Source: Planctomycetaceae bacterium (GTDB taxonomy: Bacteria > Planctomycetota > Planctomycetia > Pirellulales > Thermoguttaceae). From it: 64,000 nt of DNA. The position numbers and the translations under genes were made by a program. The stretch is taken from assembly GCA_009778035.1 (NCBI GenBank), contig WRKP01000003.1, positions 26,132-90,131 of the forward strand. Reading direction: 5' to 3'. Below are positions 33,513 to 44,768 of the stretch, piece after piece. Numbering within the stretch: the first letter of the stretch is position 1; every line of letters begins with the position of its first letter. Below the pieces are notes generated by a model. The model was not told the DNA's origin. It was given only the letters and a program-made list of their open reading frames with translations, and did not search any database.

Positions 33513-35663
33513 ATGGCAGAACCAGTACAAAAAATCGAAAAAAACGATTCGCTAAAGTCAAAACCGACAAAAAAAATTAAAAAACCAGCACGACAACTGT
33601 TCCTCCGACGGGAAATTAGTTGGCTCATCTTCAACGAACGAGTTCTCCTCGAAGCCGCTGACCCTACCGTTCCCGTAATCGAAAGACTCAACTTCCTCGG
33701 GATTTTTTCCAGCAATATGGACGAATTCTACCGAGTCCGCGTTGCCATCCTGCAACGACTCGCTAATCTTAAAAAAGAAGAAGATGACGTCGAACTTGAC
33801 TTCGATCCCGTGAAAGTCCTCCGCGACATCCATCGAAAATCCGTCGGCCTCCGAAATAAAGCCGACGATATTTACAAACGCATTTGCCGAGAACTTGCCG
33901 CCGAAAACATCTTTTTCGTCAGCGAACAGGACTTGACCGAAGAACAAGGCGTCTACGTCCGGCGATATTTCCGCGAAACCGTTCGGCAACACCTCTTTCC
34001 CCTGATGCTGGAGCGTTTTCGCAATTTTTCCAGCCTCCACGATGACTCCATATATCTGCTCGTTGACCTGTCCCATAAACACAATCCCACAGCCGAAAAT
34101 CTGGCAATCATCGAAGTTCCTACGCAACACGTTCCCCGATTTTTCGTCCTGCCTCTCGGGCCCGACAAACGCAATCTCGTCATGTACCTCGATGACGTCA
34201 TTCGCTATTGCCTCGATGATATTTTTATGGTTCACGGCTTCACCGACTGCAAGGCATATACCATCAAATTCACCCGGGATGCCGAATTTGACATAGATAC
34301 CGACGTGTCAAAAAGTTTTCTCGAAGCCGTCAGCGAAGGATTGCGTCAGCGAAAACACGGCAGCACCGTCCGATTCGTGTTTGACAAGTCGATGCCGAAA
34401 AAAGTCCTGGCTACCATCCTGAAAAAATTTAGCCTCAAACGCGGCGATTCGCTCGAAAAGGGCGGCCGCTATCATAATGCCCGAGACCTCGTGCAGTTTC
34501 CGCGAAGTTTGGGAACCCGAAAAATGCAATACGAGCCGATGCCGCCGCGCGAAGTTGCGGACTTCCCGCACGGCGTTTCGATGCTCGACGTGATTCGGGA
34601 AAAAGATGTGCTGCTGCACTATCCCTATCATTCGTTTCAGTACATTATTGAACTGCTTCGGGAAGCATCCATCGACCCTGCCGTTCGGACAATCAAGATG
34701 ACGATTTATCGGGCGGCGAAGCGTTCGGCAATCGTCAATGCTTTGATTAACGCAGCCCGAAACGGCAAGGAAGTGATTGTGTTCGTCGAATTCCAAGCGA
34801 GGTTCGATGAAGCGGCAAACATCTCTTGGGCGGCGAGAATGCAGGAAGAAGGCGTCCGTGTGTTGCCGAGCATTCCGAGTATGAAGGTGCATAGTAAACT
34901 GATTTTAATCCGGCGTAAAGAACATGGAGCGAACGTCTACTATACGGCCATCGGGACGGGCAATCCGAATGAAAACACGACCAAAGTCTACTGCGATGAG
35001 CATCTTTTGACGGCGGATAAGAGCATTGCTTCGGAGGTTAACAAGGTATTCCATATTTTGGATGACCAAAAATATCAGAGGCCGGATTTCAAGCATATCG
35101 TGGTGTCGCCGTTTGGAACACGTCGATTTTTCCTCAAGCACATCGAACGGGAAATACGCAATGCCAAAAAAGGCAAACCGGCTTGGATGATTGTGAAGGT
35201 CAACAATTTGGTGGACAAAAAATTGATCGGCAAACTTTACGAGGCGAGCGAGGCGGGCGTCAAGATTGATTTAATTATACGGGGGATATGTTCGCTCATC
35301 CCGGACTTACCGGAGGCGGCGAACATTCGTGCGATTCGGATTGTGGATCGTTTTTTGGAGCATTCTCGGATATTTGTATTTTGCAATGATGACAAACCGG
35401 AATACTTTATTGGTTCGGCGGATTGGATGGAGCGGAATTTGGATCAGCGATTTGAGGTGATTGTTCCGGTCAAGGATCCTGGACTTTGCCGTCAGATTTG
35501 GGACATATTGCAGATACAAATATCGGACAATGTCAAATCGCGATTGATAAGTGTATCGCATCCGAACGAGAAGATGGTTGTACCGAAGAATGCGAAGCGG
35601 ATTCGTGCTCAGATGGAGATATACCGTTATCTCAAAAAGGCCCCGGAAGAGGAGATGCAATAG
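33513..35663 (+). CDS. ppk1: Polyphosphate kinase 1
   Basis: REISWLIFNERVLLEAADPTVPVIERLNFLGIFSSNMDEFYRVRV, plus two PLD-like HKL/HSK modules (KVHSKLILIRR; FLEHSRIFVF). Start set at the ATG 6 nt after AGGAGG (33501-33506). The ORF is open from 33438, but that part overlaps the repeat. Confidence 0.95.
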   Translation: MAEPVQKIEKNDSLKSKPTKKIKKPARQLFLRREISWLIFNERVLLEAADPTVPVIERLNFLGIFSSNMDEFYRVRVAILQRLANLKKEEDDVELDFDPVKVLRDIHRKSVGLRNKADDIYKRICRELAAENIFFVSEQDLTEEQGVYVRRYFRETVRQHLFPLMLERFRNFSSLHDDSIYLLVDLSHKHNPTAENLAIIEVPTQHVPRFFVLPLGPDKRNLVMYLDDVIRYCLDDIFMVHGFTDCKAYTIKFTRDAEFDIDTDVSKSFLEAVSEGLRQRKHGSTVRFVFDKSMPKKVLATILKKFSLKRGDSLEKGGRYHNARDLVQFPRSLGTRKMQYEPMPPREVADFPHGVSMLDVIREKDVLLHYPYHSFQYIIELLREASIDPAVRTIKMTIYRAAKRSAIVNALINAARNGKEVIVFVEFQARFDEAANISWAARMQEEGVRVLPSIPSMKVHSKLILIRRKEHGANVYYTAIGTGNPNENTTKVYCDEHLLTADKSIASEVNKVFHILDDQKYQRPDFKHIVVSPFGTRRFFLKHIEREIRNAKKGKPAWMIVKVNNLVDKKLIGKLYEASEAGVKIDLIIRGICSLIPDLPEAANIRAIRIVDRFLEHSRIFVFCNDDKPEYFIGSADWMERNLDQRFEVIVPVKDPGLCRQIWDILQIQISDNVKSRLISVSHPNEKMVVPKNAKRIRAQMEIYRYLKKAPEEEMQ

Positions 35664-35666
35664 AAG

Positions 35667-35696
35667 GCACGAGCCGGGGGCTAACGCCCCCGGCTA
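35667..35696. repeat. Family B GC-hairpin element
   Basis: GCACGAGCCGGGGGCTAACGCCCCCGGCT immediately after the ppk1 stop. Confidence 0.85.
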
Positions 35697-35733
35697 TGGC
35701 GCAAAAGTGCCCCGCAAGCGAAACGGCCAACAC

Positions 35734-36842
35734 TTACTCGACATCCACTCCCACAGCCGCTCCGCGCATGTCGATGATGAGACCGATGTTGCCCTCCGCC
35801 GTAATGGTTCCGCCAGCCCTGCACAGAGTATCAATGTATCCGTAACTATTGTCGAAGGTACCGCCACGCAGAGCAAACTCTCCAATAGAACCTGAGTTCA
35901 CAAATTTTCCAGCCCGAATGTCCACAGTTGTTACAACGCCATCAAGGTCGTTCGTCATCTGATCGCCGGTCATCTTGCACTCGTCAATGTTGCCGCAAAC
36001 GTTCGTCATCACGCTGTTGGTTACGGTGAGACTGTCAATGTTGCCATTTATCTTTTGTATCTTTAGTCCAACTTCTTTAATGGATCCATTCTGGAAACTC
36101 CCGTTGCTTAGTGTCGCATCGTTAATAGTGCCGTAGTTTGTAAGCGAACTGCCAGCGCACGACAACCGAACGAACTTGAGCACGCCGCCGGTACTATTGA
36201 GCATCTCACCTCGCAGACTCGCGTGCTCAATCGTGCCGTTGCTCGTAATGCGACTGAAGTCTCCGACTTGAAGATTCCCGACCTTGCCGTCACTATTTTG
36301 GACATTTGACCGCCGTTCATTATTGCGTGAAACGGTACCGTAGTTGTCAAGATAACCGCCGTTGACCGTCAAATCCTGAATGTCTCCGTTCTTTCGGTTC
36401 TTAATGATGAACTGAGTATCTCTCCATTTCTCGTCCACCCCCCCATTTTGAGGTGGTTTTGCTACCGTAGGTGATTGATTTTTCATTGAGCACCAAAGGT
36501 TTGTTGGCAATCCGATTGCCGAAAGACTGGCCATACACATTCGTCGTGCCCACTTGCAGGATAAAGTTTTCGATTACCGACGTGTTGAACCATCTGGAAG
36601 TTGAGCGATCGCCATTCAAGGTGTCGGTGGTTACCCATAGGTTATCGAAGTACGTGTTGGTGCAATCGGCAATGACCCTCGCTGTCACCATGCATTTGCT
36701 CGGCGGTGCCGTCGAACTGTTCGGTTTCTTCGATCATCGGGTCTTCTGGTAAAGAATCGTTGTAAAATTGTGCGTACGCGGAAGAGATTCCGCCGAGCGT
36801 GATGGCCGCCCCGGTCAGTTTTTTGTGAATTGAGGAAGTCAT
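35734..36842 (-). pseudogene. Frameshifted gene for a secreted Asn/Gly/Thr-rich beta-helix-like repeat protein (three consecutive overlapping frames)
   Basis: ORFs 36642-36842 (signal peptide MTSSIHKKLTGAAITLGGISSAYAQ), 36401-36691 and 35734-36540 abut head to tail on the same strand. The last two overlap across a G7 tract, and removing one G fuses them (..TSKWG-VDEKWRDTQF..). Repeats such as NYGTINDATLSNGSFQNGSI. Visibly AT-richer than the flanks. Confidence 0.55.
36438..36444 (-). repeat. G7 (plus-strand C7) homopolymer at a frameshift point
   Basis: tcgtcca-ccccccc-attttg. Both overlapping reading frames traverse it. Confidence 0.9.
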
Positions 36843-36967
36843 GGTCGGTTCTTCTTACATGAGGGGTTTGCGGTGGGCGAAATGTCAACCGGTCTATGAG
36901 GTTATGGCAAATGGGAAGCGATTTGCGACAGGGAGCGGGGAGGATTTTTTTTTGCGTCAAATTAAAG

Positions 36968-37072
36968 AGCCGGGGGCGTCAGCCCGCGGGTTGGTTCGAC
37001 GTAGATTTGTTCGATAGACTCACCCGGGGGCTAACGCCCCCGGCTCTTGCGTGCACTTGCTCGTGCCCCCGG
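36968..37072. repeat. Family B composite element (two hairpins plus spacer, inverted orientation)
   Basis: AGCCGGGGGCGTCAGCCCGCGGG-TTGGTTCGACGTAGATTTGTTCGATAGACTCA-CCCGGGGGCTAACGCCCCCGGCTCTTGCG. The spacer is roughly the reverse complement of the spacers at 40052-40088 and 44838-44869. Confidence 0.85.
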
Positions 37073-37073
37073 G

Positions 37074-37101
37074 TTGACACCGCAAGCAAATATGGTAAAA
37101 A
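37074..37101 (+). promoter_or_regulatory. Possible sigma-70-type promoter of the DUF1559 gene
   Basis: Perfect TTGACA (37074-37079), a 16-nt spacer, then TGgTAAAAA. An AGGAG SD (37121-37125) and the ATG at 37134 follow. Confidence 0.4.
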
Positions 37102-37133
37102 GGGACCTTTCCAACCAAATAGGAGTATCAACC

Positions 37134-38359
37134 ATGCGAAATTATCGCCACAAAATGTTAACTTGGGGGGGGGGGGCAGTATAGGAAGGCACAAAACGCT
37201 CGCTTCCGCTCGCAATCACGCCTTCACCCTCGTCGAACTCCTCGTCGTTATTGCCATCATCGGCATGCTCGTCGCTCTTCTGCTTCCCGCCGTTCAGGCC
37301 GCTCGCGAAGCCGCCCGACGAATGCAATGCAGCAACCACATGAAACAAATCGGACTGGCCGTCCACAACTTTGAAAATACCCAAAGTGTTCTGCCGCCAT
37401 TGGTTATCAGCCGAGGCAGAACAAGCATTTTCTTCCTGATTTTGCCCTTCATGGAGCAAACGGCAGTTTACGAATCGCAAACCGGCGTCGCAGCACACGG
37501 TTGGGGCGAACGAAGAGATCCCATCACCTCCGTTTGGGTGATTAACTGGCCGGATCAGGCAACTGCAACCTCGTTCACGCCAAGCGATAGGATCGGCGGA
37601 CAGGGAAGCGATGAAGCAAGCCGAAGAGCCTGGATAGACGCTTTGGCAGCGATTTCCGTGTATGTTTGTCCGACACGCCGCCCGGCGGGAAGACTAACGA
37701 GCGGCGGAATGACCGACGATTGGTGTAACGGGACCCCTACCCGGGATTATGGCTGGGGGCCTGCAAGCGATTATGCCGCCGTATCGCTTTCGTTCAGGGA
37801 AGGCAGCGGAATGATGCAGCCCGCCGACCTGAATCGGGAAATCCATGAGGATTATATGCACGTGACGATGGAAAATACCAATGCCGTTTCATCGAGGTTT
37901 CGCGGCCCCTTCCGACCAGCAACCTTTGGCACATCGCCTCCGTCCGGTTCTGATATGAACTGGCTTGAAGAAATCGCAAGTTGGCGGGGCCGGGATTCGA
38001 TGGCTTGGTGGCGCGATGGGGCCTCCAATCAGTTAATCTTCGGAGAAAAGTATTACTCCAATGACCAGCAGTATTCGCATTTGAACGATTCGACTTGGCT
38101 CGGCATCTATTGGAATTCGCACCAAGGTGCTGCACGAAGTTTTCACGGGTCATGGTGGCCGATTGCACGATCGGGAGTGAAGGAAAACCTCTCGAACTGT
38201 TGGGAAGCCAGAAACCGATTCGGCAGTTGGCATCCGGGCGTTTGCCTGTTCCTGCTCGGCGATGGTTCTGTGCGTTCTATTTCGCACACGACGCCGACCA
38301 ACGATGTTTTGTTCCGGTTGGCACACGTGAATGACGCCCAAACGGTCAGTTTGCCGTAG
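37134..38359 (+). CDS. DUF1559 protein with type IV pilin-like N-terminal methylation/cleavage motif; the start region is out of frame with the body in this sequence because of a G12 tract
   Basis: Body frame: ...[56 protein letters not shown] ... GDGSVRSIS. The ATG at 37134 (with SD) stops after 16 codons ([16 protein letters not shown]). One extra G, or two fewer, joins it to the body. The only in-frame alternative start is TTG at 37163, which abuts the tract. Confidence 0.8.
37165..37176 (+). repeat. G12 homopolymeric tract
   Basis: acttGGGGGGGGGGGGcagt. By far the longest homopolymer in the window. Confidence 0.95.
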
Positions 38360-38455
38360 ATCGCCAGCAAGTTCGTACAAGAGCGGGAACATTGGCCTTC
38401 CCGCTTTTTGGCCCCGTTTTTGGCATTTTTCTCACCACGAATCCCTAACTCCTTT

Positions 38456-38875
38456 ATGAAATACCATATTTTCCCCTTATTATTTGCATTACTCATCGCG
38501 GCTGGGTGCAGCGGCAAGGTGCCGCTTACCGGGACAGTAACCTTTTCCGATGATGGTTCGCCATTGCCCCAGGGAGTCATTTATTTCCAGTCGGACACGC
38601 TGGTGGCACAGGGCGGCATCCAACCTGATGGAACCTTTAGAGTCGGGACGGACAAAACAACCGATGGTTTGCCGCCGGGAACGTACCGGGTATACATTGG
38701 CGGAGCCGAATTGAGCGAATTTGTGCCTCATACGGTTGGAATTCACCAAACGTTGCGGCAAAACATTACGCCGTTGATTGATACGAAGTATAATGACCCT
38801 GCCACATCGGGTCTTTCCGTGGAGGTCGATAACCGAACCCGGACGTTCGACATTCAAGTCGACCGGGCTCGTTAG
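38456..38875 (+). CDS. Small lipoprotein, carboxypeptidase-regulatory-like beta-sandwich (typical DUF1559 companion)
   Basis: MKYHIFPLLFALLIAAGCSGKVPLTGTVTF.DGSPLPQGVIYF...GTFRVGT...LPPGTYRVYI. Lipobox AAGC. Confidence 0.6.
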   Translation: MKYHIFPLLFALLIAAGCSGKVPLTGTVTFSDDGSPLPQGVIYFQSDTLVAQGGIQPDGTFRVGTDKTTDGLPPGTYRVYIGGAELSEFVPHTVGIHQTLRQNITPLIDTKYNDPATSGLSVEVDNRTRTFDIQVDRAR

Positions 38876-38881
38876 ACGTCA

Positions 38882-39970
38882 TTGCAATATCATCGCAATT
38901 TAGGTAAAATGTCCCGCATATTGCGGTTATTCCACCAAACGAGAATGGGTGAATGGGAAGAAGAACTACGCCGGTTTCGCAAACTTACTCTGTCCTGTTG
39001 GTTCCTGACAGGACCGACCAGCGTCGGAAAAAGTAAAGTCGGACTTGCTCTCGCTAAAAGCCTCGATGCCGAAGTCGTCTCCATGGATTCCATGGCCGTC
39101 TATCGCGAAATGGACATCGGTACGGCTAAACTCGCGCCCGAAGACCGAGCCGGTATCCCCCATCACCTCGTTGATATCATTGATCCCAGCGATAACTATT
39201 CCCTCGCACAATACGTCAACGAAGCCGCCGATAAAATTGCCGAAATCCATCTGCGCAACAAAAACGTCCTCTTCGTCGGCGGAACACCGCTGTACCTCAA
39301 AGCAATGCTCCGCGGCATCTTTGAAGGCCCGCCCGCCGACCAAGAATTCCGGATGGAACTGCAACGAAAAATGCAAGGAAAACCGCCCGAAGCACTGCAT
39401 AATCTGCTTAAAAAAGTCGATCCCATCTCCGCAAAGCGATTGCATCCCAACGATGTCAAAAGGGTCGTTCGGGCATTGGAAGTCTATGAAAAGATGAAAA
39501 AGCCGATCAGTGCGTTCCAAAAACAATTCGATAAAGGCTCCCCGCCGGAAAAATGCAACGTCTACGTCCTGCAAATGCCGAGGGAACTTTTGTATGCTCG
39601 AATCGACAAACGTGTTGATCGAATGATTTATGACGGCCTGCTCGATGAAGTCAAATTATTGACGAAGCGCACTGCTCCCGTCAGTCAATCGGCACGTCAG
39701 GCTCTCGGTTACAAGGAACTTTTTGATTATCTTGAGGGGAAGAGTACTTATTCGCAGGCGGTGGAGTATATTAAGCAGAGTACGCGAAATTTTGCCAAGC
39801 GTCAGGAGACGTGGTTTCGTGGTTTGAGCGAATGCCGATTTATTCCGTTCGACAAGCCTGTTTTTGAGGGCGTCGATGATTTCAAGATGAGTGTATCGCC
39901 TCAATACAGCAACATGCCGGCTGGCGTTCGCATTCCGACTGGCGGCGAAGATGACGCGGCATATCCGTAG
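38882..39970 (+). CDS. miaA: tRNA dimethylallyltransferase MiaA (start uncertain: TTG 38882, ATG 38909 or ATG 38945)
   Basis: LTGPTSVGKSKVGLALAKSLDAEVVSMDSMAVYREMDIGTAK and PHHLVDIIDP. Carries a ~40-aa C-terminal extension. Confidence 0.9.
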   Translation: MQYHRNLGKMSRILRLFHQTRMGEWEEELRRFRKLTLSCWFLTGPTSVGKSKVGLALAKSLDAEVVSMDSMAVYREMDIGTAKLAPEDRAGIPHHLVDIIDPSDNYSLAQYVNEAADKIAEIHLRNKNVLFVGGTPLYLKAMLRGIFEGPPADQEFRMELQRKMQGKPPEALHNLLKKVDPISAKRLHPNDVKRVVRALEVYEKMKKPISAFQKQFDKGSPPEKCNVYVLQMPRELLYARIDKRVDRMIYDGLLDEVKLLTKRTAPVSQSARQALGYKELFDYLEGKSTYSQAVEYIKQSTRNFAKRQETWFRGLSECRFIPFDKPVFEGVDDFKMSVSPQYSNMPAGVRIPTGGEDDAAYP

Positions 39971-40008
39971 TGGGTTTGTGGAATCCCTTAAACGGTCCGG
40001 AATTGCGT

Positions 40009-40127
40009 TGCGCACGAGCGAGTGAGCGCACGAGCCGGGGGCGTAAGCCCCCGGGTTAGGTCTATCAAAGAATATCATATGTCGAAGAACCCGGGGGCTA
40101 ACGCCCCCGGCTCTTGCGCGTCGCCCC
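40009..40127. repeat. Family B composite element
   Basis: GCGCACGAGCGAGTGAGCGCACGAGCCGGGGGCGTAAGCCCCCGGG-TTAGGTCTATCAAAGAATATCATATGTCGAAGAA-CCCGGGGGCTAACGCCCCCGGCTCTTGCGCG. Confidence 0.9.
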
Positions 40128-43613: not shown

Positions 43614-44768
43614 ATGACAATAATCACCATGACAAACAAATCCAATTACCGAGCGTTCACGCTCGTCGAACTCCTCGTCGTCATCGCCATCATCGGCATG
43701 CTCGTCGCCCTGCTCCTTCCCGCCGTTCAGGCCGCTCGCGAAGCCGCCCGGCGAATGTCCTGTACCAACAACTTCAAACAATGGGGTATCGCCCTGCATA
43801 ACTACTATGCCCAAAATAATGCCATGCCCCGAATGGAAGCACGCTGGGCCGAAATGAATGGACGGGGAAATCCCGTCTGGCCCACCGATACAAACGGCGA
43901 ATACGCCTTCGATCCCGCATTCCCATCCAATACCGACCTGTCGATTCACACTCGGCTCTTCCCCTTCGTTGAGCAGGGAGCGTTTATCGCTGCACACGAC
44001 GAGGCTTTACAGGGGCCGCTTTACCGAACGCGAACCGGCATCAGAACACCGCTGTTGAATCCGATCAATGGCGTTGCCCTGCTGGATTATACGGCTCCGC
44101 TCCTTATCTGTCCCAGCGAATCGGAAAGCCGAATACAGGGAACGGCGGCGGGAGATTCGGGAGCGATCCAGGAAATGATGGGCGGTACGAATTATGTCTG
44201 GTGCAACGGAACCGGCATCGGTCCATTTTGGAGCATTGCCAATGTAACGACTTCGGACGGCTTGTTCAGTCGGCGGACGGGCGGGATGTCGCAAATGCAA
44301 GATGGGAGCAGTAACACGCTGGCAATCAGCGAAACGCTTCTTGCGCAGGCCAGCCGGACGGCAACGACGGACAGAAAAGTATGGCGTCGGGTATTTATGT
44401 CATTTCAGCCTGGCGATGAACTTCCGGCATCGCAGTATGAGGATCTCGACTTGTTGGCAATCGCACAGGGGCTTAATCCAGGGCCGGGCGGCGGCAATCG
44501 CGGATTTCCGTGGCTTTCGTCGCGGGGGACGGCAACGGGATTTTCGACGTATTATGTTCCTAATGCGGGCATACCGGGAAATTGGATACGTAGGATTGCG
44601 GGAGGCGAGTCGGTCAATTCCAATTACAATTTTACGAGCAGCAATCATCCTGGCGGGGTGGGGGGATGTTTTGCCGATGGGAGTGTGCGTTTCATTACGG
44701 ATGGCATCGCATTGGAGGTATGGCGGGCGTTGAGCACGTGTGCAGGCGGCGAGTCGGTTTCGCTGTAA
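43614..44768 (+). CDS. DUF1559 protein with type IV pilin-like N-terminus (second copy)
   Basis: [65 protein letters not shown] ... [17 protein letters not shown]. There are two in-frame ATGs (43614, 43629), created by a 15-bp tandem duplication. Confidence 0.9.

What the first reader, a model, noticed from the sequence alone, without database searches (positions are those of the whole stretch)
37074..37200. G12 tract between promoter/SD/ATG and the body of a DUF1559 pilin-like gene: candidate phase-variable ON/OFF switch
Seen: a perfect -35 TTGACA, an extended -10 (TGgTAAAAA), AGGAG and the ATG at 37134 are followed after 10 codons by 12 consecutive G (37165-37176). In this sequence the ATG frame terminates 3 codons after the tract ([16 protein letters not shown]). 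The pilin-like body (..[29 protein letters not shown]..) lies in another frame, which has no ATG or GTG start downstream of the promoter; its only candidate is TTG at 37163, which abuts the tract. G13 or G10 would give one continuous protein with a ~30-aa leader. No other homopolymer in 64 kb exceeds 9 nt. Established: homopolymeric tracts of this length at the 5' end of surface-protein genes are the classical slipped-strand phase-variation device (Neisseria, Haemophilus, Campylobacter, Helicobacter). DUF1559 proteins form very large paralogous families in planctomycetes and their function is unknown. Inference: stochastic switching of a DUF1559 surface or pseudopilin protein would be new for this phylum. 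The alternative is a homopolymer sequencing error.
Basis: partly seen in the sequence, partly recalled or inferred. Interest (0 to 1): 0.65.

Follow-up and report, generated by a model that had tools for sequence, protein, structure and literature searches.

The report
Poly-G switch in a planctomycete pilin-like gene
A run of 12 G bases sits inside the cleaved-off leader of a pilin-like surface-protein gene, and because the same run recurs in over 100 related gut-bacterial genes at lengths that put them in or out of frame, it is most likely a slippage-driven on/off switch not yet described in this phylum.

Summary
G12 lies at 37165-37176 and is the only G/C run longer than 8 in 64 kb. The SD+ATG frame (37134) stops 5 nt after the tract. 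The DUF1559/H-X9-DG prepilin body is in another frame, whose only start candidate is TTG 37163. It is not an assembly error: an independent Illumina/MEGAHIT contig of a 99.7%-identical strain also has G12. Comparative data support a hypermutable contingency tract. A homologue with a near-identical leader (L001) has G13 and reads straight through from its SD+ATG. At least 88 DUF1559-type genes in gut Planctomycetota MAGs (termite, ruminant, names suggesting stool) carry G10-G17 at the same leader position. Their SD+ATG frames relative to the pilin body are spread almost evenly (26:20:20). Pairs of genes with near-identical flanks differ only in tract length. GGG is the rarest Gly codon in these genes, and about 73 environmental DUF1559 loci lack the tract. 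The window's copy is therefore most likely in an OFF, or leaky TTG-dependent, phase. Switching at this exact locus was not observed: two strains both show G12 and a third contig breaks inside the tract. The mechanism is classical; the gene family, phylum and scale are new.

The parts
37074..37079 (+). -35-like hexamer TTGACA
   Evidence: Read directly. The consensus scan did not pair it into a promoter, because the -10 is imperfect.
37093..37101 (+). Extended -10-like TGgTAAAAA, 16-nt spacer, lacking the final T of TATAAT
   Evidence: Homologue L001 has TTGACT-N17-TATACT at the equivalent place.
37121..37125 (+). Shine-Dalgarno AGGAG, 8 nt before ATG 37134
   Evidence: SD+ATG pairs are found at the same position in 66 of 88 homologous loci.
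37134..37184 (+). Short ORF from the SD-linked ATG ([16 protein letters not shown]). This is the ancestral leader frame, now cut off by TAG 5 nt after the tract. A second in-frame ATG lies at 37155.
   Evidence: The same frame is continuous with the pilin body in L001 (G13).
37154..37162 (+). Conserved leader-cassette motif AATGTTAAC. It reads N-V-N in the pilin frame and M-L-T in the ATG frame, and has TAA in the third frame.
   Evidence: GTTAA lies within 14 nt upstream of the tract in 60 of 88 Planctomycetota loci and in 0 of 29 loci from other phyla.
37163..37165 (+). TTG, the only canonical start candidate in the pilin frame. It abuts the tract and has no SD.
   Evidence: state 'altstart_only', with TTG at -2.
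37165..37176 (+). G12 homopolymer, the proposed slipped-strand switch
   Evidence: The same G12 is present in the independent contig L203. Homologous tracts are G10-G17.
37177..37222 (+). Post-tract part of the leader peptide in the pilin frame (..[15 protein letters not shown]), ending at the predicted prepilin-peptidase site A|F
   Evidence: The post-tract peptide G-S-I-G is shared with L018 and L071.
37223..38359 (+). Mature DUF1559 / H-X9-DG pilin-like protein: [14 protein letters not shown].., a 52-residue N-terminal helix and a large globular domain
   Evidence: Pfam and NCBIfam hits. AF2 model has pLDDT 81 with helix 17-68. Only the helix matches a solved pilin, 1ay2.
38456..38875 (+). 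139-aa lipoprotein (MKYHIFPLLFALLIAAGC..), the conserved downstream partner and probably co-transcribed
   Evidence: Homologues follow DUF1559 genes in L001, L003, L058, L090, L097, L106, L122, L124 and L126. No terminator-like site was called between the two genes.

Best explanation
The G12 run is a hypermutable homopolymer, a contingency tract, placed in the part of a DUF1559/H-X9-DG prepilin-like gene that encodes the leader peptide removed by prepilin peptidase. Slipped-strand mispairing during replication adds or removes G residues. This puts the SD-linked ATG (37134) in or out of frame with the mature pilin-like protein. In the sequenced state (G12) that ATG frame stops 5 nt after the tract, so the gene is OFF. 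At best it is weakly expressed from the SD-less TTG 37163. G13 or G10 would restore a 30-aa leader and full expression, probably together with the downstream lipoprotein partner. Because the leader is cleaved off, its sequence is free to tolerate a Gly run of variable length. In related gut Planctomycetota many paralogues per genome carry the same cassette, so each cell lineage would display a different subset of these surface proteins. What is shown: the tract, the frames, conservation of the tract across the family, length differences between genes with near-identical flanks, and a near-uniform frame distribution. What is inferred: replication slippage as the cause, reversibility, the switching rate, surface exposure, and the selective agent (host immunity, phage or niche).
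For: 1. The tract is an extreme outlier and sits exactly between the SD+ATG and the pilin body.
2. It is not an error: an independent Illumina/MEGAHIT contig from a 99.7%-identical strain also has G12.
3. L001 has a near-identical leader but G13, and reads through in frame from its SD+ATG.
Of these, 88 are Planctomycetota loci with G10-G17 lying 8-38 nt before FTLVE.
5. Of those 88, 40 have no start codon at all in the pilin frame. Forty-two of the 49 loci that lack an in-frame ATG have an ATG ORF entering the tract in another frame.
6. The SD+ATG frame relative to the pilin body is 0, +1 or +2 in 26, 20 and 20 loci. Out-of-frame ORFs mostly stop 0-60 nt after the tract.
7. Pairs with near-identical flanks and no flank indels differ in tract length and state: L025 G11 vs L121 G13, L057 G11 vs L088 G12, L014 G11 vs L049 G12, and L079 G14 vs L097 G12 (the last pair are two contigs of one MAG).
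8. GGG is the rarest Gly codon (11.6%) in the mature parts of these genes, so the homopolymer is not a product of codon preference.
9. In 568 kb of these loci, 90 of 95 G>=9 runs precede a pilin motif, and 4 of the other 5 have the same upstream cassette.
10. In a protein-based sample of 80 DUF1559 loci, the 5 with G>=11 tracts are all termite-gut or (by MAG name) stool MAGs. None of about 73 environmental or isolate loci has one.
11. G12 exceeds the poly-G>=9 threshold used to call phase-variable genes in Neisseria (PMC5953494).
Against: - No length variation was seen at this locus itself. Two strains both have G12, and the third contig (L205) merely ends inside the tract.
- All data are consensus assemblies, and no reads were available.
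- TTG 37163 is in frame, and the pilin frame here is the family's commonest pre-tract frame (N-V-x-L-GGGG). G12 could therefore be a functional state.
- The closest homologue (L122, 70% identity) has a decayed tract with an in-frame TAG. This shows that some copies simply degenerate.
- My pattern search required G>=10 and a short post-tract gap, so the sample is biased by how it was collected.
Confidence: 0.7

Rival explanations
1. There is no switch at this locus. The gene is expressed constitutively from TTG 37163 (leader [20 protein letters not shown]). The Gly4 run is simply part of a conserved leader peptide, and the SD+ATG ORF is an unrelated upstream ORF.
For: TTG is in frame. The pilin frame upstream of the tract reads [12 protein letters not shown], which matches the commonest family leader frame. 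G12 is identical in two strains.
Against: TTG has no SD, and it lies inside an ORF served by a good SD+ATG whose sequence (MxxYRxKMLxW) is conserved with L001, where it is the real start. A peptide-only constraint would not use the rarest Gly codon four times. It also would not leave 45% of family members without any in-frame start.
Confidence: 0.1
2. Fixed frameshift: the gene is a recently inactivated pseudogene, or a decaying copy, in a large redundant family, with no reversible switching.
For: G12 is shared by two strains. The closest homologue, L122, has a degraded tract with an in-frame TAG. The uniform frame distribution is also what neutral decay would give.
Against: The 379-codon mature part is intact and identical in both strains. 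Tracts stay long and uninterrupted (G10-G17) across many diverged lineages, whereas neutral decay would interrupt them quickly. Genes with near-identical flanks differ by tract length alone.
Confidence: 0.1
3. Programmed recoding: RNA polymerase slippage on the G run, or a -1 ribosomal shift on G GGG GGG, produces in-frame product from G12 templates. The tract then sets a fixed expression level rather than switching.
For: The pilin frame is -1 relative to ATG 37134. G_GGG_GGG formally fits the X_XXY_YYZ slippery pattern (own knowledge), and a stop follows 5 nt after the tract.
Against: A recoding site needs a constant frame offset across homologues, but offsets of 0, +1 and +2 are about equally common. 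No stimulatory RNA structure was found (fold z-score +0.73) and there is no Rfam match at the tract. Known efficient transcriptional slippage uses A/T runs (own knowledge).
Confidence: 0.07
4. Homopolymer assembly or sequencing error: the true length is G13.
For: Long G runs are error-prone, and one JGI contig breaks inside the tract.
Against: The same G12 appears in an independent MEGAHIT contig from a different strain or sample. The family-wide frame spread cannot be produced by rare consensus errors.
Confidence: 0.03

Closest known systems
Neisseria pilC1/pilC2 poly-G phase variation
   Same: A G9-G20 run lies inside the 5' coding region of a type IV pilus-associated gene, and frameshifts switch it ON or OFF (PMC5953494). 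Placement in the signal-peptide-coding part is from my own knowledge (Jonsson et al. 1991).
   Different: PilC is a pilus tip/assembly protein with a Sec signal peptide, found in a proteobacterial pathogen at one or two copies. Here the gene is a prepilin-like DUF1559/H-X9-DG protein with a class III (prepilin) leader, in Planctomycetota, with up to 13 or more copies per genome in relatives.
Neisseria opa multigene family (CTTCT repeats)
   Same: It is a multi-copy surface-protein family. Each copy carries its own repeat, which I recall lies in the leader-peptide coding region (own knowledge), and switches independently, giving combinatorial expression. It is listed as Opa, CTTCT(7-21), genic, 4-12 copies in PMC5953494.
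   Different: The repeat is a pentanucleotide rather than a homopolymer, and the products are outer-membrane beta-barrel adhesins rather than pilin-like proteins.
Campylobacter, Helicobacter and Haemophilus homopolymeric contingency loci
   Same: Poly-G/C tracts of 8-13 nt sit in surface-structure genes of host-associated bacteria, and roughly random ON/OFF states are seen in genome sequences (own knowledge).
   Different: The gene classes differ (glycosyltransferases, OMPs, R-M systems), and there is no shared leader cassette.
Programmed transcriptional slippage or ribosomal frameshifting (dnaX, IS elements)
   Same: A homopolymer separates two reading frames that must be joined to make the product.
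   Different: Those sites have a fixed length and fixed offset conserved among homologues. Here both length and offset vary freely.

Membership tests
SSR-mediated phase-variable (contingency) locus | Homopolymer at or above the mutability threshold (poly-G/C >=9) within the ORF or promoter | tested here: met
   G12 at 37165-37176. The threshold is from PMC5953494.
SSR-mediated phase-variable (contingency) locus | A change of repeat number changes the reading frame or expression of the gene | tested here: met
   With G12 the SD+ATG frame stops at 37182, while G13 or G10 reads through. L001 with G13 is in frame.
SSR-mediated phase-variable (contingency) locus | Repeat number differs among orthologues or closely related strains while the flanks are conserved | tested here: inconclusive
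   This is met for the family: L025/L121, L057/L088 and L014/L049 (different MAGs) and L079/L097 (two contigs of one MAG) differ in tract length with conserved flanks. It was not seen at this locus: two strains have G12 and a third contig ends in the tract.
SSR-mediated phase-variable (contingency) locus | Mixed ON and OFF states across homologous genes in sequenced genomes | tested here: met
   Frames 0, +1 and +2 occur in 26, 20 and 20 loci, and 40 of 88 loci have no in-frame start.
SSR-mediated phase-variable (contingency) locus | Reversible, high-frequency switching within a clonal population | not testable with these tools
   This needs reads, single-colony resequencing or reporter assays.
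DUF1559 / H-X9-DG prepilin-like proteins (PF07596, TIGR04294) | N-terminal prepilin cleavage/methylation motif (G/A|FTLxE plus a hydrophobic helix) | tested here: met
   PF07963 E 7.8e-7 and TIGR02532. The AF2 model has helix 17-68, which matches gonococcal pilin 1ay2.
DUF1559 / H-X9-DG prepilin-like proteins (PF07596, TIGR04294) | DUF1559 domain and C-terminal H-X9-DG motif | tested here: met
   PF07596 E 7e-32 (112 bits, cutoff 23.3). TIGR04294 scores 33.1 bits (cutoff 19), and the motif reads [12 protein letters not shown].
DUF1559 / H-X9-DG prepilin-like proteins (PF07596, TIGR04294) | Processing by a prepilin peptidase and assembly into a filament or pseudopilus | not testable with these tools
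   No biochemical data are available, and no peptidase or secretion ATPase gene was examined in the window.
Programmed recoding site (transcriptional slippage / -1 PRF) | Constant frame offset and tract length conserved among homologues | tested here: not met
   Offsets are spread evenly over the three frames and lengths range from 10 to 17.
Programmed recoding site (transcriptional slippage / -1 PRF) | Stimulatory downstream RNA structure | tested here: not met
   The fold of 37108-37260 has z-score +0.73, and there is no Rfam hit at the tract.

The most novel reading that the evidence does not exclude
Host-associated Planctomycetota (termite hindgut, ruminant hindgut, and MAGs whose names suggest stool) have turned part of the huge DUF1559 pilin-like family into a multigene contingency system. 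There are dozens of paralogues per genome (at least 13 tracts in MAG Kf353_bin130). Each carries a shared leader cassette, (A)ATGTTAAA + G10-17. The cassette offers start codons in two frames and a TAA in the third, so cells display stochastic, combinatorial subsets of these surface proteins. The same trick, poly-G in the cleaved prepilin leader, recurs in pilin genes of gut Bacilli/Mollicutes-like bins, Saccharibacteria and Elusimicrobia. That would make the phase-variable prepilin leader a general and so far unrecognised adaptation of gut bacteria.
Probability: 0.5. Interest if true: 0.75.

Novelty: new member of a known kind. Interest (0 to 1): 0.64.

Why it matters
DUF1559/H-X9-DG proteins are among the largest paralogous families in Planctomycetota, and their function is unknown. 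Only the host-associated lineages equip them with classical contingency tracts. That argues these proteins are surface-exposed and under fluctuating selection from phage receptors, host immunity or substrate niches, and it gives a concrete handle for experiments. It would also be the first SSR phase variation reported for this phylum, as far as the held literature shows. There is a practical side too. These genes are routinely mis-annotated in MAGs: the database call for this gene starts at ATA 37181, and homologues are called from internal Met or TTG. The poly-G tracts also break assemblies.

Tried and rejected
- Exact-flank searches for other alleles of this locus found nothing in genome contigs or metagenome contigs.
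- Exact-protein look-ups of the TTG-start protein and of the database call P0001 found nothing. The 487-aa ORF and the lipoprotein partner did work as anchors. The upstream 250-aa ORF only re-found the same contig.
- A structured RNA element was rejected: the fold z-score is +0.73 and there is no Rfam hit at the tract.
- Programmed frameshifting was rejected because frame offsets are not constant.
- I considered reading the conserved TGTTAAAAT as a promoter -10 with a G-rich discriminator. I rejected it because no start codon lies between the tract and the F codon in most loci.
- Foldseek against the PDB matched only the N-terminal pilin helix. The globular domain has no solved relative.
- My first 'control' (G runs within 70 nt of the F codon) under-counted tracts. 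Four termite-gut loci have the tract 70-100 nt upstream.
- A literature search for the JGI sample numbers returned nothing, so the habitat of the window's own organism is not established.

Full report
**Observation**

- G12 occupies 37165-37176. The next-longest G/C run in the 64-kb window is C8, and the longest run of any base is T9.
- In 100 dinucleotide-preserving shuffles a G10/C10 occurs 0.1 times on average, and never three overlapping times.
- Upstream lie TTGACA (37074-37079), TGgTAAAAA (37093-37101), AGGAG (37121-37125) and ATG 37134.
- The ATG frame reads [16 protein letters not shown] and stops at TAG 37182-37184.
- The consensus promoter scan did not pair the two hexamers, because TAAAAA lacks the final T. 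The promoter is plausible but not strong.
- The downstream frame encodes a 379-residue mature protein with the prepilin N-methylation motif (PF07963, TIGR02532), the DUF1559 domain (PF07596, E 7e-32) and the C-terminal H-X9-DG motif (TIGR04294).
- Within 100 nt upstream of the tract that frame has no ATG or GTG, only TTG 37163. The long in-frame ORF from ATG 36896 runs through the promoter region and two REP-like palindromes, so it is not credible as coding sequence.

**The tract is not an assembly error**

The 487-aa ORF and the downstream lipoprotein served as exact-match anchors. They recovered an ENA MEGAHIT contig (ERZ27257348 k141_2191649, locus L203). It is 99.7% identical to window 33896-40043, with 15 substitutions and 3 single-base gaps, all outside the gene, so it is another strain or population. 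It carries the same G12. A third contig from JGI 3300002469 (L205) begins inside the tract with G11 followed by CAGTATAGG. It gives no information on length, but it shows the tract breaks assemblies.

**What the homologues show**

Among the 120 best protein homologues, about a fifth have GGGG in the leader. Gene callers read the same DNA in different frames..KMLNWGGGG....NVKLGGGG.., or a start at MGGGG. Several homologues are called from an internal Met, which loses the FTLVELL N-terminus. DNA of four homologues was inspected.
- L001 has a leader almost identical to the window's, but with G13. The sequence aaggag-N7-ATGAATGCTTATCGAAACAAAATGTTAAACTG13CAGTTTAGGCAG.. reads MNAYRNKMLNWGGGGSLGRLG|FTLVEL in one frame from its SD+ATG. 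It shows that the window's SD-linked ATG frame is the ancestral start of this sub-lineage.
- L003 has G12 in frame.
- L002 has an interrupted GGAG8.
- The closest homologue, L122 (70% identity, from the same ENA sample as L203), has a decayed tract TTAGGGAGGGAGGGGC with an in-frame TAG.

**Family-wide scan**

I searched one genome per GTDB species for G10 + N8-38 + TTYACNYTNRTNGARYT. Of these, 88 are Planctomycetota. Their record titles name a Termes hospes P3 hindgut bin, many bins with similar termite-style names, and Thermoguttaceae from goat, water-deer and roe-deer hindgut. Planctomycetia bins labelled 'St' may be from stool, judging by the name alone. The naming of the termite bins was checked for Th196 in PMC7024585.

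The results are as follows.
- Tracts are G10-G17, with a mode of 12.
- Sixty of the 88 loci share GTTAA within 14 nt upstream of the tract. No locus from another phylum does.
- Forty of 88 have no ATG, GTG or TTG at all in the pilin frame between the last stop and the F codon. Nine, like the window, have only a TTG or GTG.
- Forty-two of the 49 loci that lack an in-frame ATG have an ATG ORF that enters the tract in another frame.
- In the 66 loci where an SD+ATG can be recognised, its frame relative to the pilin body is 0, +1 or +2 in 26, 20 and 20 loci. Out-of-frame ORFs mostly stop 0-60 nt beyond the tract.
- The conserved GTT-AAR (V-K) codons give the same picture: 23, 22 and 15.
- Pairs with near-identical, indel-free flanks differ in tract length and therefore in state:
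  - L025 G11 (OFF) vs L121 G13 (ON)
  - L057 G11 (ON) vs L088 G12 (OFF)
  - L014 G11 (OFF) vs L049 G12 (ON)
  - L079 G14 (OFF) vs L097 G12 (ON); this pair lies on two contigs of one MAG, so these are paralogues
- One termite MAG (Kf353_bin130) contributes 12 contigs with 13 tracts. Its near-identical paralogues are in different phases (ataG11 in frame; ataG12 or aatG13 out of frame).

**Controls**

- GGG is the rarest Gly codon in the mature parts of these genes, at 11.6% of 2,795 Gly codons. Three or four consecutive GGG codons are therefore not explained by codon preference.
- In 568 kb of these loci, 90 of 95 G>=9 runs lie just upstream of a pilin motif. Four of the remaining five have the same upstream cassette.
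- A protein-based sample that did not depend on the tract gave 80 DUF1559 loci, mostly from environmental MAGs and isolates such as Blastopirellula, Rhodopirellula, Novipirellula and Paludisphaera. Only five had tracts of G>=11, and all five are termite-gut or stool-named MAGs. None of about 73 environmental or isolate loci has one, apart from a single unrelated G9.
- The window's second DUF1559 paralogue (43614-44768) has no tract.

**Alternatives tested**

- A programmed recoding site would show a constant offset among homologues, and it does not.
- The 5' region has no significant RNA structure (z = +0.73), and there is no Rfam match at the tract.
- The conserved TGTTAAAAT could look like a -10 element. 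In most loci, however, no start codon exists between the tract and the F codon, so the tract must be translated.

**Mechanism**

The best-supported reading is a slipped-strand contingency tract in the leader-peptide coding region. The leader is removed at A/G|F by prepilin peptidase. Its sequence evidently evolves freely: both pre-tract frames, and even alternative post-tract frames, are used by 'locked' relatives with interrupted runs. It can therefore host a frameshift switch without affecting the mature protein.

In the window the G12 state uncouples the SD+ATG from the body, which is the OFF state. The in-frame but SD-less TTG 37163 may allow some leakiness. G13 or G10 would be ON. The conserved 139-aa lipoprotein gene 96 nt downstream follows DUF1559 genes in many loci, and no terminator-like site was called between the two genes. 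It is likely to be co-regulated, but this is inference.

The AF2 model (pLDDT 81) shows the 52-residue pilin-type helix, which matches gonococcal pilin 1ay2. The large globular domain has no solved relative.

**Limits**

- No reads were available, and switching at this locus was not observed. Two strains share G12.
- The habitat of the window's own organism is not established.
- Slippage as the cause, reversibility and surface exposure are all inferred by analogy with classical systems.

**Comparison with known systems**

This works like Neisseria pilC (G9-G20, genic) and like the opa family, where each copy has its own repeat and switches independently (PMC5953494). I recall that both repeats lie in the leader/signal-peptide coding region; that detail is from my own knowledge. 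G12 exceeds the poly-G>=9 criterion used there.

The differences are the gene family (DUF1559/H-X9-DG prepilin-like), the phylum, the shared (A)ATGTTAAA-Gn leader cassette and the copy number. Full-text searches for DUF1559, for phase variation plus Planctomycetes, and for H-X9-DG found no report of this.

**Verdict**

This is a new member of a known kind.

Noticed in passing
window 7954, 35674, 36970(-), 37024, 40035, 40091, 44820, 44872, 55011, 60814 (20-nt sites): A REP-like palindrome, CCGGGGGCTAACGCCCCCGG, has 13 matches (up to 3 mismatches) against 0 in shuffles. The sites appear to lie between the long ORFs. Two copies sit just upstream of the DUF1559 promoter region. There is a sub-threshold Rfam hit to Acido-Lenti-1 (21 bits, gathering score 37). 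Collinearity with the related strain contig L203 ends at the palindrome pair near 40043.
   Followed up: partly
L027, L034, L035, L037, L042, L044, L070 (Bacilli MAG Lapin-027__bin54); also L019/L062, L043/L061, L021, L029, L060, L072, L094: Pilin-like genes (FTLIE type) of low-GC gut Bacilli, 'Tenericutes', Saccharibacteria and Elusimicrobiaceae bins also carry G10-G15 in the leader-coding region. Seven near-identical paralogues in one Bacilli bin all have G10, one G longer than the in-frame length. G9 copies would have escaped my search.
   Followed up: partly
L107 (Neisseria sp. MAG S28M_Sa_33): G10 lies immediately upstream of the ATG of a PilE-like gene (MQKTLQKG|FTLIE). It is therefore in the 5' UTR or promoter rather than in the leader.
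   Followed up: no
window 37154-37162 and the equivalent place in 60 of 88 Planctomycetota loci: A conserved DNA motif, (A)ATGTTAAA, lies directly before the tract. It gives N-V-K in one frame, an ATG start (M-L-K/N-W) in the second and a TAA stop in the third. It is unresolved whether this reflects common descent or selection for two usable start frames.
   Followed up: partly
L122 760-850 (ENA ERZ27257348 k141_2680859): The closest homologue of the window's protein (70% identity) comes from the same sample as L203. Its tract has decayed to TTAGGGAGGGAGGGGC, and TAG replaces the TGG codon. The gene caller starts at an internal Met and loses the pilin N-terminus.
   Followed up: yes
L205 1-20 (JGI 3300002469): A contig of the same species as the window starts inside the tract (G11 CAGTATAGG..). 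Assemblies therefore break at this homopolymer.
   Followed up: yes
window 37181: The database gene call for this gene (P0001, 392 aa, MGRHKTL..) starts at ATA 37181, just after the tract. An ENA call uses ATG 36896 (487 aa) and reads through the promoter. Both are annotation artefacts caused by the frameshift.
   Followed up: yes
window 38456-38875; L001, L003, L058, L090, L097, L106, L124, L126: A small lipoprotein of about 140-160 aa with no Pfam or NCBIfam match is a conserved downstream partner of DUF1559 genes. It is also present in Blastopirellula marina.
   Followed up: partly
window 43614-44768: A second DUF1559/H-X9-DG paralogue has an ordinary leader ([14 protein letters not shown]|FTLVELL) and no homopolymer. 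It is followed by two REP-like palindromes and by rplQ.
   Followed up: yes
L123, L136, L186, L197 (termite-gut MAGs): G12-G15 tracts with the same cassette lie 70-100 nt upstream of the F codon, so the post-tract leaders are longer. The G10+N8-38 scan therefore under-counts tract-bearing genes.
   Followed up: partly
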